NCBI RefSeq assembly: GCF_026571515.1
Contig: NW_026861690.1
Span: 124,001 to 188,000, forward strand
Origin: Ruditapes philippinarum
Taxonomy: Eukaryota
Direction of reading: 5' to 3'
Length of the DNA stretch: 64,000 bases
Shown here: in pieces, positions 3,001-57,000 of the stretch
Layout of the letters: every line of letters begins with the position of its first letter
Numbering within the stretch: the stretch's first letter is position 1
Program-made: the position numbers

Positions 3001-6000
3001 ATCAAAATTTGGTCGTTGAAAACCTGGTTTTCATCGCATTGCGGCGCTTCTTGTATTATTTGATAAAGTATATTGGTGCTACAAGGAAATTCCATGTGGT
3101 CATTTATTCAGTACATATGTATTTAAAAGATGCTTGATCCTTTCTTGCCCATGTTTTGGTATTGGTATAAAATTGGAAAGTCCTGCATTATAACCTTCTA
3201 ATATGGGTAGATGTCCTCTTATTTAGACTCCATAGCATTTTTCTGATTGAAGGAGTGCTGCTTACTAAAACATTAATTTTTGTTATGTACAAATCAATAA
3301 AGATCATTATACATGTATTGAGTTACATGCATTATGGGTAATATTTTTCAATTTGTTAAATAACATGACATGTATATAGCAAGATCATCGGGGTTCTGGT
3401 GGGGATGTTAATAGGGGTGGTTTTGGGCGTATCTCTGGCAGATTTTTGAAGGTCGCTTGTGACTAAGAATCAGTTTGTAGCAAACTTTCACAGCCAAATA
3501 TGAGCTAGAATCCCTGTCGGGGATGATAAAAAACTTTGAGGCAACTGTCTAGTGTGTTTAAGTAAATTACGAACCCTACAATTATAATCGCCACCTCAAG
3601 GTTTTATATAGCACAGGTTACGTCTCCTTCAAATTATGCTCCTTTGAATTATGCGGCAGCAGTTTAGTGTACAAGCATGGTCGAACTTGATGTTTAAACT
3701 TTATATATTATGATAGTCTGATTAAAACTGTCTGGTCTTTATTTATATATATTTATGGAAAGGTTTTAATAGCAAAGTTGAAAGTACTCTTAAAGTTTTC
3801 CCCTCAACATATTTTTATAGATTATAAAAAGTACAAAGCGTAAACTTTCCTATTAAATATACATCTGTATGAAGTATGCTATGTTATAGTATGAATAGGT
3901 CTCCTTCTGTTCATACAAATTTCTGTTTTATATATTGGTATGAACTGTTTAATAATTGAAATGTTATAACAATGAAACAAAAGCTCAGTATTTATGATGT
4001 GTGACGTTACCTTCTTTTCACAGGAGTTGGATTATTTCAATTAAATGACATGGCTATATGAAACCCTTCATTTGCGACACAATATCGTCGGAATTATATG
4101 AAACGAGAGTAGTTATGTTAAATATACATGACTACTTATTACAGTGGTCGAATAATTAAAGGGAAGAAATCAAAGCAAATAAATAAAAAATAAAAAAATA
4201 ACAGGGTAAAATAAAGAAATAAAAAATATACTATGTTAAAATTATTTATAAGCTAGGGAAAATCAATTTCATGTTTTACAGTTTATTGTTTGAATTGTAT
4301 TGTATATACACTTTAATGGGAGAAAATTTAAAAGCTATTGTTGAAAGTTTGAAAATTAATATTCTGCTGGAATGTACAAAATTTCATTTGTTGAAAAAAA
4401 GTCACCCCTATTGTCTACTGATTTGAAATTACGATAATGGATTTTAAAAAGTCCAGACTTGTCAAAAGTAGTTGACCCGTTGATCCTGTTAAAGATAAAT
4501 AGACTCAACCATACAGGTGTATTTAATTGTTCCAATCTGTAATGGATTAGTCCACTTTAGAAGAAGAATGGGGGCAGATTATGGATCAGATAGATATTGG
4601 TTAAAGTTTTCACCAGTGATTTTTACCAATATGGATCCATGATTTTGAATGACTTGAAAGGCCTATATATGTCATATTTATATATACGGGTGGAATAAAC
4701 AGGACCCCGTTTAACAGTTTTACCGATTGTCATGTTTATTAGAGTAAACAAAATAATGGGGAAAAAAATTTGTAACAAAGTATCATGGAGATAAACATCG
4801 TGAAATGACAGTTCATTTGATTTTATGGTCGTTTTCATGCTTAATGGATTTATGAGTGCAAAGAATTTAATGAAGAAGTGAAAGAAGGATTTTTATATAC
4901 CGGATATATGAATGGAAATTGAAAAGTAAAAAATTAACAGGAAAGAAGAAGAAAAAAGTTTTATTTTCGTGATTTTAGGACACATAATTATGTGAATGTA
5001 AATGTCATTTGGTGTTGTTTTTTTAATTTTAAAAAAGGAGCTTAGTTAACTTTAAATGCTGATATGAAAATTGAAAATACTTATATGTTAAGTTTATTTC
5101 TGGCATGTAAACAACACTATAAAAAAATGAATTTAAGCAACAAATATAGCAAACAGAGATTATATTTTCACTTAGTCATATTTTAAATGTTATCAGTGTG
5201 GAAGGGTGTCTTTTTTTTTTTTCGTTTTTCAACAAATGTTAAACACGTAGGATTTAAAAAAATTAAAGAGAGGATTTAGAAGAGAGAATATTTCTATGTT
5301 ATGTAAACAAATAACAGTGGATTCTAGTCTCAAAAATCTTAGAGTGATCGTGAAAAAAACGGGTCTTGGAGTTACATGGGTAAAGGAGCAAGTCTTATTT
5401 GCGGCAGGTCAGTACAAAAACAAACTATTTCATATTACTGTGGGGGGGGGGTATGTTTTCATGTCATATAGTAGTACATGTTTTGAAATTATTGACATTA
5501 ATAAAGAAGTCAAAATGGAGGTCGAATATTGATATGTAAGGATTGGATGTGGAAGGAGCGTCACTTTCTTTTTTGTTTAAATGATAATTGGTTTTAATAA
5601 TCCATTGATCTTAAATATTTTAAAGGTTCTTTAATGAAAAAATTTACATCTCTTATAAAAAAAAAAATGTGAAAAATCATGATTAAAAAAAATGCTGCAA
5701 TGTGAAAGAAATTAATTACTTTATTCATTCCAAATTTTTCAGGGATTTGAAAGACACAATGGATTTAAAGTAGAAAACATACAATTAGTTCTGTTATAAA
5801 GGCCCACAATTCCTTTGATCAAAATTGACAATGTAATATAATAGGGAGGCCATTTACACACTTTTTACCTTTAATAGTGGTTTTAGTACATTAAAATGAG
5901 AAAAATATTCTAATGTATATTGGATGGGTGGGGAAAAGACATTTACATGGTACTCCTACATGCTGCATGCTGCCAAATCTTTTTTCTACATTTGTATTTT

Positions 6001-54000: not shown

Positions 54001-57000
54001 AATATAAGTTCTGGACAGCTAGACAGTTAGTAGTTGTACTCGGTTTTCTGTCAGCGTCTAAACATACACAAATATAAGCAATCTGACCTCTTCCTTCACC
54101 ATTGAAAACTAGAAACTGATCATGTGACCTTTTTAAGTTGTCATGTGACTTTGACAGTGATGATGTCATTTAAAAGTAAACAAAAATCTTAAAAAAAATA
54201 TATAAAAGAACAAAATATTACTTACTATTATTTTTCATTTTCTCCATAATTTATTATTATCTAATGTAAGATGAAAATGAATTCTTTTAAAATATGCTGT
54301 TTTAATATGAAATATATATATATTTGTTTCTTTCTCAATAATTTATAATATAATATATGCTGATTTTATCTGAAATTGGTTATTCTTAGGGTTTTTTTTT
54401 GCTTTTTTTTTTTTGACAAATGTTGATAACAATTTAAGAAAATATACCTCCCTTTGCACAGGTTGTCATGTTTATACGTGCCTCTCGTGAAACGCATTCC
54501 GGAGAACTAGTTTTAAAAGTTCGACCGAATGGTAAGTGTGCATGCTGTAAAGTTACTTTCATTTGCTTTTTTTTTCTTTGGTTTTCATTATCGTCTTTTG
54601 TGCCGTTTTTCCTAGGTTGTGCTATTTATAAGACAATCGAGGGAGTCTCGTACGAAGGATCTTAATTTGATAGTTAGACCGAATGGTATGTATTAAAAAT
54701 GTGTTACAAGGAATGGGGTGTTCTTTTTTTTGTTTTTTTTTTATATACTGCATAATAACATCAGGTAATAGTGGTCCATTATTGTATAATATGTGTGATC
54801 CTAATATATGAATGTTTAAATATTAACATCCCTTATATAGATAGAAGTTATAACACTATTAATATACCTGTATTGTCATATTTTTAATCATGAAAATTTT
54901 TTTTGTGATTTTATTTCTCTATTCTAGGAACTTCTCATAATAGTAAAAAAAAAATAATAATATTAAACAGGCCCAAATGGATAGCAATTTTAGACTGAAA
55001 CTTTGTGTCAGCTCGAAAGTTTAGAATCTTGCAGTGAAATTAGGTCAAGAGTGGGCTGATGGTCAATGCATGAAGACTTAGAATCCGGCATTAAAATTAG
55101 GTCAAGAGTGGGCGCATAGTCATGTTTTTCAAATCTAGTCATTGGATTGAATCCATATATAGTACCAAGGATTTCTCACACACACAAACAAATTCAATGA
55201 CACTTGTCAATTCCAATCCATCAGAAAAGCGTAGACTTGTTTTAGGTTTCTAACTTTTATCCTTGCAGTTGAGCTAAAATGACATACATGTATATTGCTA
55301 TGCTTAGGTAAATTTCAAATTTGAGTTGCTGTCTTAGTTTGATATATTAGACAATAAAATTGAAGTAACCTCAATTTTGGTCTCAGAAAATTCAGAATTT
55401 ACCAAAACCATAATGCAGGATGTTAGGAATCTAATTTTAACATTCTGCTATTCACCTGCTATCAAGTTTATCAGAATTTGAATTCAGTGAAAAATTTTTA
55501 TAAAATTTTGTGATTTCTAGGAATAAGTATATTGAAAGGATAATTACATAAAAAAACTATTTAACAGAATTAGAATCCAAAAATAGAAAATTTAATGGTA
55601 TCTTGTTAATGCATATCAATTTTTCTTCCTTAGTTTTGTTTTCTTTGTTTACTTATTTCATTTGTGTGTACCATCAAATCTAACATGTTTTTTCGTAAGA
55701 CTATATAATATTGCATGTTATATGACACTTAATTATTTTTTGACAAGATGAATTGCATCGTGGTGTATTCATTTTTCAGATGGTTTTTATGGTTTTATAT
55801 TCTGTATTTTATGTTATCAAAAATTACATCTGTACATTGATGCAAGGATTGCCGGTTTCAAAAGAAATAAAAAATTGTTGGTATAAAGTTTCACAAGGGA
55901 AAACTTTAAAATGAGAGCATAATTTTCCTTATGTAATATAAAGTTATAAATATTTTTATGAGAGGGTTGTATTTAAAAAATTGTTGGTTTTGAAGTCTCA
56001 TGATCTGGGACAGGGGGGTGGGGTCTATGGGCTGGCTCTTATCTGAGATATTTAACATAGGGCCTGCTGGGGCTTCTAAGGTCTTGTGCTCGCTGATGCC
56101 TTAAATATTAGATATAGGGGCACCTGGTTTCTTGGGCATGCTCATGTATAAATATAATACAATACAGGGCACCTTGGGGCCTTTGCTATATCATGCCTGA
56201 AATACTTTAAATAGGGGCACCTGGAGTCTATCGGCTGGCTCATGCCTGAAATAGAAAGCATAGGGGACCTGACATCTTGGGCTGGTGTGTACCTCTTATA
56301 TTAAATGGAGAGAAAACAGGGCTTCTTCACCAGTAAAGCCAGATTGGCACCATATGACTTAAGCTGTAAGACTGAAGTTCTTGTGCAGTAGTGAAATGAA
56401 CCAGAAATCTTAAGATTGACTGAATCAGAATGTTAATCCTTAATTAACTCATTTAGTTTGTGGTGTTTAAGATTTTTGAGGTTGGAATCGTAGAAATTTT
56501 GTATTTCACTTTATTGTGGTTTGCAAAGAACTATCCTTTATAACTTTATGGAATTTATTTTAGAACTATCCTTTTGGTGATTCGTATAATAAAAAAACAG
56601 CTCATACATTTAGACAGTGCAGGTATTTAATTACCTGTCTGGTATGTACATACCTTGACTAGCTTTTACAAGATGTGGTATCTTGTTCTATATAGCAGCT
56701 GAGATAATACATTTTTGAAATGAACTTTCAATGAATGGGGGTTAGTTTACAATTTGTCCTTCAAGGATGAAATAATGAATGCATAATATTTTTTTTTATG
56801 TCTGTATCTAGTTACTGGTCATGTACAGCTTATTATTATACATATGTTGCAAATTATCTACCTTTATATTGCAAAAAAATTTAGGGAAAATATTATCATT
56901 TCTTCATTTCTAAATGAAAAAGGAAGAAATTGTTTATGTTTACCTGTTTATTTTTTAGCTTTCCTTTTTTTTCAACTATAGCTAAGTTTGTACAATAATT

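What the first reader, a model, noticed from the sequence alone, without database searches (positions are those of the whole stretch)
5453..54685. Combinatorial isoform system: a bank of intronic N-termini times a two-state PDZ on one phosphatase
Inference from the separate observations. The two very long introns (at least 27 kb and 23.6 kb) hold candidate first exons whose phases match their downstream acceptor: phase 2 before 27740 and phase 0 before 51470. With the FERM form and PDZ A/B this gives up to ~10 products sharing one catalytic domain but differing in localisation, stability and partner binding. It would also explain why these introns are huge while the PTP introns are 0.4-2 kb.
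Basis: inference. Interest (0 to 1): 0.72.

Follow-up and report, generated by a model that had tools for sequence, protein, structure and literature searches.

The report
Clam phosphatase gene with swappable front ends
A clam gene for a PTPN3/PTPN4-type tyrosine phosphatase appears able to start from two or three unrelated front ends and to swap one small piece of its PDZ domain, an ordinary kind of isoform diversity with two previously undescribed front-end modules.

Summary
The window is bivalve DNA, not human. All nine shared exons checked match a Ruditapes philippinarum RefSeq 'PTPN4-like' protein at 100%.

The sequence observations mostly hold:
- The 23,570-nt intron (27900-51469), an upstream intron of at least 27.7 kb, and the stated splice phases are correct.
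- Two 70-nt duplicated exons (A 54462-54531, B 54616-54685) encode the last 23 PDZ residues. They can only be used one at a time.
- The 23.6-kb intron holds two strongly coding, conserved, Met-initiated exons with phase-0 donors: N2 (32687-33478) and N1 (43053-45173).

N1 is joined to the same PDZ-PTP exons in RefSeq models of Mercenaria mercenaria and Mya arenaria. The Mercenaria N1 form and FERM form share 422 of 422 C-terminal residues, starting exactly at the acceptor equivalent to 51470.

Three parts are not supported:
- The candidates in the first intron, including the ATG at 5453, are no better than chance.
- N2 has no joined model.
- About 10 products is an overcount. The ceiling is 3 x 2 = 6, and only FERM-A, N1-A and N1-B are seen in relatives.

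The shared PDZ beta1-beta2 exon is scrambled in this assembly.

Verdict: partly supported, a new variant of a known kind.

The parts
27740..27899 (+). Last linker exon specific to the FERM-containing form. It is 160 nt; its first base completes a codon and its donor is phase 0.
   Evidence: 53 of 53 identity to residues 524-576 of Mercenaria PTPN4-like isoform X5 (P0019), which carries FERM_N/M/C, FA, PDZ and PTP. Splice sites read.
32687..33478 (+). N2: candidate alternative first coding exon of 264 codons. It is acidic (pI 5.0), with donor AAG|GTATGT in phase 0.
   Evidence: 13 homologues at 37-99% identity all start at the same Met (MS invariant). All lose similarity right after YYLGPPK, followed by V[C/S/G], as expected for read-through of a GT donor. 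Coding log-odds 68.6 bits. An in-frame stop lies 4 codons upstream and there is no good acceptor. No model joining it to PDZ-PTP was found.
43053..45173 (+). N1: alternative first coding exon of 707 codons. It is basic (pI 9.8) and hydrophilic, with donor AAG|GTGAGA in phase 0.
   Evidence: It is the N-terminus of RefSeq models P0013 (Mercenaria, 64% identity) and P0016 (Mya, 35% identity), both followed by PDZ and PTP. Its homologues are 12 hits in each of two searches, 17 distinct proteins in all. Coding log-odds 269.8 bits. An in-frame stop lies 13 codons upstream, and the three upstream AGs are out of frame and pyrimidine-poor.
51470..51565 (+). Common acceptor exon (PDZ beta1-beta2), phase 0 at both ends. 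Its 3' half is aberrant in this assembly.
   Evidence: The first 14 residues, PNGNGYLDGQGLVT, match the orthologues. The rest reads NPDDPRMIPGGPDCFQCQ where the orthologues have IRMIPDEQGRFGFNVK, and it contains an exact 11-nt tandem duplication. No Pfam hit.
53199..53342 (+). Middle exon of the PDZ domain.
   Evidence: Pfam PDZ E 2.2e-13. Best solved relative is the human PTPN4 PDZ, E 2e-20. Boundaries.
54462..54531 (+). PDZ exon A (VVMFIRASRETHSGELVLKVRPN), 70 nt.
   Evidence: 23 of 23 identity to Mercenaria P0013 and P0019 and to R. philippinarum P0018; 22 of 23 to Tegillarca P0020. Best PDB hit is PTPN4, E 5.2e-5.
54616..54685 (+). PDZ exon B (VVLFIRQSRESRTKDLNLIVRPN), 70 nt, lying 84 nt after exon A.
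   Evidence: 19 of 23 identity to the corresponding segment of Mya P0016. Acceptor and donor are intact. Read after exon A it runs into a stop codon. Best PDB hit is PTPN3, but weak at E 0.12.
57468..57625 (+). Exon for the linker between the PDZ and PTP domains.
   Evidence: 100% identity to P0018 residues 66-118. 8 database proteins contain it.
58703..63646 (+). PTP catalytic-domain exons: 58703-58793, 59653-59720, 61609-61740, 62123-62266, 62907-63055 and 63511-63646. The last coding exon lies beyond the window.
   Evidence: 100% matches to P0018 residues 119-358. Pfam Y_phosphatase on two of these exons. WPDHGVP and [11 protein letters not shown] are visible in the translations.

Best explanation
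This is the bivalve orthologue of the FERM-PDZ-PTP phosphatases PTPN3/PTPN4 (Ptpmeg), most likely from Ruditapes philippinarum.

How the transcripts are built:
- Transcription can start upstream of the window. That gives the FERM form, whose last specific exon is 27740-27899.
- Transcription can also start inside the 23.6-kb intron, at N1 and probably at N2.
- All three 5' modules end in a phase-0 donor and splice to the single acceptor at 51470. Unrelated N-terminal modules are thereby placed on one PDZ-PTP body.
- Further downstream, two tandem 70-nt exons encode alternative versions of the end of helix alpha2, the alpha2-beta6 loop and strand beta6 of the PDZ domain. Using both, or neither, breaks the reading frame, so each mRNA carries exactly one.

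Inferred function:
- The FERM module anchors the enzyme at the cell cortex.
- N1 is about 700 residues long, basic and mostly disordered. It has conserved Ser-rich and basic motifs and a few short helices. It would give a different address or different regulation, probably through phosphorylation-dependent partners.
- N2 is acidic and has no confident fold. It would give a third option.
- The A/B choice alters the face of the PDZ next to the PDZ-PTP linker. It could tune ligand preference or the PDZ's control of catalysis.

Shown: the exon anatomy, their conservation, and the joining of N1 and of the FERM exon in relatives' gene models. Inferred: use of N2, independent promoters, free combination, and all functional consequences.
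For: - Species and gene: P0018 (R. philippinarum PTPN4-like X1) matches nine exons at 100%. PDZ and PTP Pfam hits. The best solved relatives are the human PTPN4 and PTPN3 PDZ domains.
- N1 joined: P0013 and P0016 carry N1 followed by PDZ and PTP.
- Same locus: P0013 and P0019 share 422 of 422 residues from PNGNGYLDG onward and lie on the same 82.4-Mb contig.
- First-exon character of N1: of the 13 stand-alone N1 homologues whose sequences I read (of 17 found), all 13 start 10-20 residues before the NLSQ motif. All 13 also end a few residues after a K/E/Q-V junction.
- First-exon character of N2: all 13 homologues show the same pattern of shared Met start and divergence after the donor position.
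- Upstream of both ATGs there are in-frame stops and only pyrimidine-poor AGs (Y 0.35-0.45). The 12 real acceptors all have Y of at least 0.55. Five of the 6 candidate AGs are out of frame.
- Coding scores single out N1 and N2.
- A/B: equal length and phase. A stop codon appears if both exons are included. The A type is conserved at 22-23 of 23 and the B type at 19 of 23 in other bivalves.
- N1 occurs with A in Mercenaria and with B in Mya.
- Precedents: FERM-less isoforms of human PTPN3 are on record (PMC6520365, passage in the Introduction). The PTPN4 PDZ inhibits its own phosphatase domain through the linker (PMC5554198, abstract in the search listing).
Against: - No transcript data for this species were available. 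The joined forms are automated RefSeq models in other species.
- The R. philippinarum RefSeq model P0018 has none of the three N-termini. It starts inside the PDZ middle exon.
- N2 appears in no joined model among the 8 proteins holding the linker exon.
- There is no promoter signature upstream of N1 or N2. CpG observed/expected is 0.65 and 0.09 against a window median of 0.38.
- N1 and N2 have no Pfam family, no usable Atlas neighbour and no confident fold (pLDDT 38.5 and 43.0). Their function is therefore guesswork.
- The shared beta1-beta2 exon lacks the GFGF loop in this assembly. If that is real, the PDZ of every isoform would be impaired.
- FERM-B and any N2 combination were not seen.
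Confidence: 0.7

Rival explanations
1. N2 is not a phosphatase N-terminus. It would be the coding exon of a separate gene nested in the intron, or of a transcript that splices elsewhere. Its phase-0 donor would then match 51470 only by a 1-in-3 coincidence.
For: - No joined N2-PDZ-PTP protein was found among the 8 proteins that contain the linker exon.
- All 13 homologues are stand-alone ORF calls of 262-312 aa.
- N2 is unrelated to N1 (hhalign probability 0.12%).
Against: - In all 13 homologues similarity stops at the same point and is followed by V[C/S/G]. This is the signature of a conserved GT donor, not of a conserved stop codon. N2 is therefore spliced to something downstream.
- No other coding-looking ORF lies on the + strand of the intron.
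- N1, with an identical architecture, is joined to 51470 in two species.
Confidence: 0.25
2. N1 and N2 are internal cassette exons of the FERM form, that is, long optional linker inserts rather than alternative first exons.
For: - Both are flanked by the FERM-form exon and the common acceptor, and all donors are phase 0.
- An AG directly before the N2 ATG (exon start 32687) would be in frame.
Against: - In-frame stops lie 13 and 4 codons upstream of the ATGs.
- The 3 AGs before N1 are all out of frame with a phase-0 donor.
- All 6 candidate AGs have a pyrimidine fraction of 0.35-0.45, against at least 0.55 for the 12 real acceptors.
- The Met start is conserved in the homologues.
- Mercenaria N1 model X1 starts at that Met, and FERM model X5 skips both exons.
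Confidence: 0.05
3. Exon B is a silent or decaying duplicate in this species, so the PDZ domain has only one state here.
For: - The only R. philippinarum model seen (P0018) uses exon A.
- Exon B matches solved PDZ domains only weakly (E 0.12).
Against: - Exon B keeps a strong acceptor (pyrimidine fraction 0.80, TAG|G), a GTATGT donor, an open frame and exactly 70 nt.
- It is 19 of 23 identical to the segment used in the Mya model P0016, although it shares only 14 of 23 with its neighbour A. That implies purifying selection on the B type.
Confidence: 0.12

Closest known systems
Human PTPN3 (PTPH1) and PTPN4 (PTP-MEG1), including the FERM-less PTPN3 isoforms
   Same: - Same PDZ and PTP body. The best solved relatives of the PDZ exons are PTPN4 (E 2e-20) and PTPN3 (E 4e-19).
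- The orthologue P0019 has FERM, FA, PDZ and PTP.
- Isoforms lacking part or all of the FERM domain are recorded for PTPN3 (PMC6520365, Introduction passage).
   Different: - Here the FERM module is not merely missing. It is replaced by long, conserved, unrelated coding modules (N1 of 707 aa, N2 of 264 aa) with no Pfam family.
- I know of no duplicated PDZ exon in the human genes. That statement is recalled, not tested.
RefSeq models 'uncharacterized protein LOC123530832 isoform X1' (Mercenaria mercenaria) and 'LOC128237607 isoform X2' (Mya arenaria)
   Same: Both have an N1-type N-terminus spliced to the PNGNGYLDG exon, followed by PDZ and PTP. Identity to the window's N1 is 64% and 35%.
   Different: - They are automated models in other species, labelled 'uncharacterized'.
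- In this window the exon after N1 is aberrant, and the species' own model (P0018) lacks N1.
Tandem-duplicated mutually exclusive exons, as surveyed in PMC9741552 and PMC9013439 (abstracts seen in the search listing)
   Same: The two exons are adjacent, homologous, and equal in length and phase. The resulting isoforms are identical apart from one homologous segment.
   Different: - The substituted segment is the C-terminal third of a PDZ domain in a phosphatase.
- Exclusivity here follows from reading frame (70 nt each). No competing RNA structure was established.
C. elegans ptp-1 (PTP-FERM) and Drosophila Ptpmeg
   Same: They are invertebrate orthologues with the same FERM-PDZ-PTP layout. From recall, ptp-1 also has shorter isoforms without the FERM domain. 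Of Uchida et al. 2002 I saw only the entry in the reference list of PMC9793419.
   Different: Neither was compared by sequence here. Whether they have N1- or N2-like modules or A/B exons is untested.

Membership tests
PTPN3/PTPN4 (FERM-PDZ-PTP) phosphatases | Classical PTP domain with a WPD loop and the HC(X5)R catalytic motif | tested here: met
   Pfam Y_phosphatase on two exons (E 1.2e-13 and 3.4e-8). WPDHGVP and [11 protein letters not shown] appear in exons 62907-63055 and 63511-63646.
PTPN3/PTPN4 (FERM-PDZ-PTP) phosphatases | A single PDZ domain upstream of the PTP domain | tested here: inconclusive
   The middle exon is PDZ (Pfam E 2.2e-13; PTPN4 E 2e-20), and exons A and B match the end of the PDZ. 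The beta1-beta2 exon lacks the GFGF loop in this assembly and has no Pfam hit.
PTPN3/PTPN4 (FERM-PDZ-PTP) phosphatases | N-terminal FERM domain | not testable with these tools
   No FERM exon lies in the window. It is inferred from exon 27741-27899 being 53 of 53 identical to the FERM-containing Mercenaria protein P0019.
Alternative first coding exons (alternative promoters) | Conserved initiator Met, an upstream in-frame stop, no usable acceptor, and a donor in phase with the shared acceptor | tested here: met
   Met for both N1 and N2.
Alternative first coding exons (alternative promoters) | Observed joined to the shared downstream exons | tested here: inconclusive
   N1 is joined in the gene models of two related species. 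For N2 none was found, and the search among longer proteins was not run. No transcripts of this species were available.
Alternative first coding exons (alternative promoters) | An own transcription start site or promoter | not testable with these tools
   The CpG and TATA look-up was uninformative. CAGE, 5'-RACE or chromatin marks are needed.
Alternative first coding exons (alternative promoters) | Candidates in the first intron (1-27739, including the ATG at 5453) exceed chance | tested here: not met
   Best coding score 9.9 bits against 12.5 on the opposite strand. Phase classes are 195, 202 and 187. The 5453 ORF has 27 codons and a weak donor.
Tandem-duplicated mutually exclusive exons | Adjacent homologous exons of equal length and phase, where using both or neither breaks the frame | tested here: met
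   Both are 70 nt and lie 84 nt apart. They share 43 of 70 nt and 14 of 23 aa. Read after A, exon B reaches a stop codon.
Tandem-duplicated mutually exclusive exons | Exactly one copy of the exon per mature transcript | not testable with these tools
   The evidence is indirect. Every model seen carries one copy: A in P0013, P0018, P0019 and P0020, and B in P0016.

The most novel reading that the evidence does not exclude
One bivalve gene may do by promoter choice and exon substitution what vertebrates do with two paralogues.
- Three unrelated N-terminal address modules (FERM, N1, N2) would be coupled, non-randomly, to a PDZ switch.
- The A state is PTPN4-like. The B state leans towards PTPN3, since the best solved match of A is PTPN4 and of B is PTPN3.
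- N1's invariant C-terminal hairpin-like motif (IVLRQCRIGxDVVFGL), just upstream of the PDZ, would act as an isoform-specific intramolecular regulator of the PDZ-PTP unit.
Probability: 0.1. Interest if true: 0.65.

Novelty: new variant of a known kind. Interest (0 to 1): 0.42.

Why it matters
PTPN3 and PTPN4 are studied as FERM-anchored enzymes whose PDZ domain gates catalysis.

Two findings would be new. Conserved non-FERM N-terminal modules of 264 and 707 residues may sit on the same catalytic body. The PDZ domain may have a built-in two-state segment next to the regulatory linker.

If the isoforms are confirmed, they give a natural experiment on how address modules and PDZ variants tune one phosphatase. 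They also show that the clam loci labelled 'uncharacterized protein' are PTPN3/4 isoforms.

In practice, the result also flags a probable error or mutation in the PDZ exon of this assembly and a truncated RefSeq model.

Tried and rejected
- Pfam on N1, N2, the 5251-5532 ORF and both frames of the 27.7-kb exon found no family.
- Pfam on five other long intronic or antisense ORFs and on exon 51470-51565 found nothing above the family cut-offs.
- The ESM Atlas gave no usable hit for N2 and only sub-threshold hits (0.79 or less) for N1.
- AlphaFold2 of N2 with 14 aligned sequences gave pLDDT 38.5.
- AlphaFold2 of Mercenaria P0013 with 21 aligned sequences gave pLDDT 43.0. Only short helices reached 60-84, and even the PDZ and PTP domains were poorly modelled. 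I therefore ran no fold search and make no claim about contacts.
- N1 and N2 are unrelated by hhalign (probability 0.12%).
- A search for a second, canonical beta1-beta2 exon in the window found none.
- A search for inverted repeats that could select A or B found only A/T-rich pairs, plus one 18-nt pair flanking both exons. It could not be tested without other species' DNA.
- CpG and TATA checks upstream of N1 and N2 were uninformative.
- Rfam and tRNA scans found nothing.
The other members of the Mercenaria and Ruditapes clusters (8, 2 and 2 sequences) stayed unseen.
No related bivalve DNA could be compared.
All searches were done exon by exon.
- Literature searches listed no paper on bivalve PTPN3/4 isoforms or on a PDZ exon pair in this family. 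Only the 10-15 top rows of each listing were looked at.

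
Full report
WHAT THE WINDOW IS

The window has no N and a GC content of 28-39% per 2 kb. It carries bivalve-type tandem and interspersed repeats. It is not human.

On the + strand lies the 3' two-thirds of a PDZ-PTP phosphatase gene. Pfam finds PDZ in 53193-53375 (E 2.2e-13). It finds Y_phosphatase in two further exons (E 1.2e-13 and 3.4e-8).

A search with the PDZ-PTP linker exon alone (57467-57625) returned 8 proteins. The best was a Ruditapes philippinarum RefSeq protein, 'tyrosine-protein phosphatase non-receptor type 4-like isoform X1' (P0018, 386 aa). 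Nine window exons match P0018 residues 1-358 without a mismatch. The window is therefore that species or something nearly identical.

All searches were made exon by exon.

EXON MAP

Local tblastn of the related proteins against the window, together with the splice contexts, gives these exons:
- 27740-27899
- 51470-51565
- 53199-53342
- A at 54462-54531, or B at 54616-54685
- 57468-57625
- 58703-58793
- 59653-59720
- 61609-61740
- 62123-62266
- 62907-63055
- 63511-63646

The last coding exon lies beyond the window. Introns in the PTP region are 382-1888 nt. The intron 27900-51469 is 23,570 nt.

THE FERM FORM

Mercenaria 'PTPN4-like isoform X5' (P0019, 998 aa) has FERM_N, FERM_M, FERM_C, FA, PDZ and PTP. 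Its residues 524-576 are 53 of 53 identical to 27741-27899 and are followed directly by the PNGNGYLDG exon.

Residues 1-523 gave only two weak hits. One had E 0.043 and contained stop codons, at 31405-31695. The other had E 0.24 at 24334-24453. So the FERM exons lie upstream of the window, and the first intron is at least 27.7 kb.

Base 27740 completes a codon, and the donor at 27899 and the acceptor at 51470 are both phase 0.

THE TWO INTRONIC ORFS

ORF 43014-45194 is 726 codons from stop to stop. Its ATG is at 43053 in a good context (aaaagaATGG), with an in-frame stop 13 codons upstream. It ends at a consensus donor AAG|GTGAGA after exactly 707 codons, in phase 0.

ORF 32675-33487 has its ATG at 32687, 4 codons after a stop. 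It ends at AAG|GTATGT after 264 codons, also in phase 0.

A codon-usage log-odds model was trained on the window's confirmed exons. It gives 269.8 and 68.6 bits for these two ORFs. Every other ATG-ORF of at least 20 codons in either long intron, on either strand, scores 12.5 bits or less. Leave-one-out scores per codon are 0.18 and 0.14, comparable to 0.12 for the shared exons.

CONSERVATION AND JOINING OF N1

A full HMMER scan of 1.84 billion representative proteins found 12 relatives of N1, 630-908 aa long. The indexed search found 12 proteins among 7,999 scored candidates. Two of these are named RefSeq models:
- 'uncharacterized protein LOC123530832 isoform X1' from Mercenaria (P0013, 1111 aa)
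- 'LOC128237607 isoform X2' from Mya arenaria (P0016, 1119 aa)

Both carry PDZ and Y_phosphatase after an N1-type N-terminus. In both, N1 is followed at once by the PNGNGYLDG / PSSNGYLDG exon.

P0013 and the FERM form P0019 are 422 of 422 identical from that point to the C-terminus, and they sit on the same 82.4-Mb contig. So in Mercenaria the two N-termini are alternative 5' ends of one locus, switching exactly at the acceptor equivalent to 51470.

I read 13 of the unnamed stand-alone relatives (P0001-P0012 and P0017). All 13 begin 10-20 residues before a shared NLSQ motif. All 13 stop a few residues after a K/E/Q-V junction that follows the invariant VLRQCR.G.DV.F.L motif. This is what plain ORF calls reading through a conserved GT donor would look like. 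I did not read P0014 and P0015.

CONSERVATION OF N2

There are 13 relatives, 262-312 aa long and 37-99% identical. All 13 start at the same Met-Ser. All 13 lose similarity directly after YYLG.P., followed by V and then C, S or G, which would be GTATGY, GTAAGY and similar donors. N2 is therefore a conserved 5' coding exon with a conserved donor.

No protein joining N2 to PDZ-PTP was among the 8 hits. Its partner exon is thus inferred from phase and position only.

FIRST EXON OR CASSETTE EXON?

Between the upstream stop and the ATG there are three AG dinucleotides before N1 and three before N2. Five of the six are out of frame with a phase-0 donor. All six have a pyrimidine fraction of 0.35-0.45 in positions -23 to -4. 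All 12 real acceptors in the window have 0.55-0.80.

Together with the conserved Met, this favours first coding exons. A non-coding upstream exon cannot be excluded.

THE FIRST INTRON

The + strand of 1-27739 has 117 ATG-ORFs of at least 20 codons. The best coding score is 9.9 bits, and that ORF is a fragment of an interspersed repeat. The opposite strand reaches 12.5 bits.

ATG-ORF x GT combinations number 195, 202 and 187 in the three phases, so a phase match says nothing. The candidate at the finding's start (ATG 5453) is 27 codons long and ends at TAT|GTAAGG. I reject this half of the 'bank'.

PDZ EXONS A AND B

A encodes VVMFIRASRETHSGELVLKVRPN and B encodes VVLFIRQSRESRTKDLNLIVRPN. Both are 70 nt, with a phase-0 acceptor and a phase-1 donor, and they lie 84 nt apart. 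They share 43 of 70 nt and 14 of 23 aa, and their flanks show no similarity beyond the splice signals.

Read after A, exon B hits a stop codon. Skipping both exons also shifts the frame.

The A type is 23 of 23 identical in Mercenaria and 22 of 23 in Tegillarca. The Mya model uses a B type that is 19 of 23 identical to the window's B and 16 of 23 to A. The two types therefore group by type, not by species, and both are conserved.

The segment aligns to the last residues of the solved PTPN4 and PTPN3 PDZ domains. The best hit of A is PTPN4 at E 5.2e-5. The best hit of B is PTPN3 at E 0.12, which is weak. My assignment of this segment to the end of alpha2, the loop and beta6 rests on general knowledge of the PDZ fold.

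HOW MANY PRODUCTS?

The combinations seen in relatives' models are FERM-A and N1-A (Mercenaria) and N1-B (Mya). The R. philippinarum model is an N-terminally truncated A form.

With N2 the ceiling is 3 x 2 = 6, not about 10. Nothing here tests whether the two choices are independent.

WHAT N1 AND N2 MIGHT DO

N1 is basic (pI 9.83, GRAVY -1.09) and N2 is acidic (pI 5.03). Neither has a Pfam family. They are unrelated to each other. Neither folds confidently.

N1 has invariant blocks across its 18-sequence alignment:
- RPRSFSD.S
- KV..RE
- P.KP.LP..YR
- a helical L..EL..LR....VR block
- RS.S
- DNRSDEEK.A.LS
- the terminal V..QC..G..V.F.L

Reading these as basophilic-kinase or docking motifs is my inference from recalled consensus patterns.

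For the A/B switch, the relevant background is that the PTPN4 PDZ inhibits its phosphatase domain through the inter-domain linker (PMC5554198, abstract only). FERM-less PTPN3 isoforms are on record (PMC6520365, Introduction passage).

AN ANOMALY IN THE SHARED EXON

Exon 51470-51565 matches the orthologues for 14 residues. It then reads NPDDPRMIPGGPDCFQCQ where Mercenaria, Mya and Tegillarca have IRM.PD.QGRFGFNVK. It contains an exact 11-nt tandem duplication, yet it stays 96 nt, open and in phase.

There is no second copy of this exon in the window. The species' RefSeq model starts only at the Met inside the next exon. I could not tell a real change from an assembly error.

NOVELTY

Alternative 5' exons and duplicated mutually exclusive exons are well-known devices. 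N1 is already present, unrecognised, in two automated annotations.

What is new is the link of N1 to the PTPN3/4 locus, the conserved N2 exon, and a PDZ exon pair in this family. My literature searches listed no paper on any of these (only the top 10-15 rows of each were seen). Supplementary files were not consulted.

Noticed in passing
window 51470-51565 (duplication at about 51513-51534): The shared PDZ beta1-beta2 exon carries an exact 11-nt tandem duplication (CCGGATGATCC twice) and a scrambled 3' half, so the GFGF carboxylate-binding loop is missing. The exon stays open, 96 nt and in phase. The RefSeq model for this species starts only downstream of it. It may be a real mutation or an assembly error.
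   Followed up: partly
window 53914-53931 and 54712-54729: An 18-nt complementary pair (89%; core CCACCCCATT / AATGGGGTG) brackets the A/B exon pair. It could be an RNA structure involved in exon choice, or chance in AT-rich DNA.
   Followed up: no
window 1837-2814, 22833-23703, 35101-35757, 46462-46850, 22180-22548, 34274-34559: Several long tandem-repeat arrays lie inside the two large introns: 145 bp x 6.8, 166 bp x 5.2, 45 bp x 14.6, 51 bp x 7.5, 39 bp and 60 bp units. They produce long spurious ORFs and make up about 7-9% of each intron.
   Followed up: partly
window 6232-6396, 16161-16408, 28393-28544, 41901-42048; also 52280-52520, 57677-57848, 60389-60638: Two families of interspersed repeats (about 160 nt and about 200-250 nt, 68-90% identity between copies) are scattered through the introns, including the short PTP-region introns. 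They are probably bivalve SINE- or MITE-like elements.
   Followed up: no
window 33737-34264, minus strand: An open frame of 175 codons lies antisense, just downstream of N2. It is longer than chance predicts but has no Pfam family above cut-off and no notable coding score.
   Followed up: partly
protein P0018 (R. philippinarum RefSeq model) compared with window 53217: The species' own annotated protein starts at a Met inside the PDZ middle exon and so has a truncated PDZ (Pfam profile positions 26-77 of 81). The annotation is probably incomplete because of the aberrant upstream exon.
   Followed up: partly
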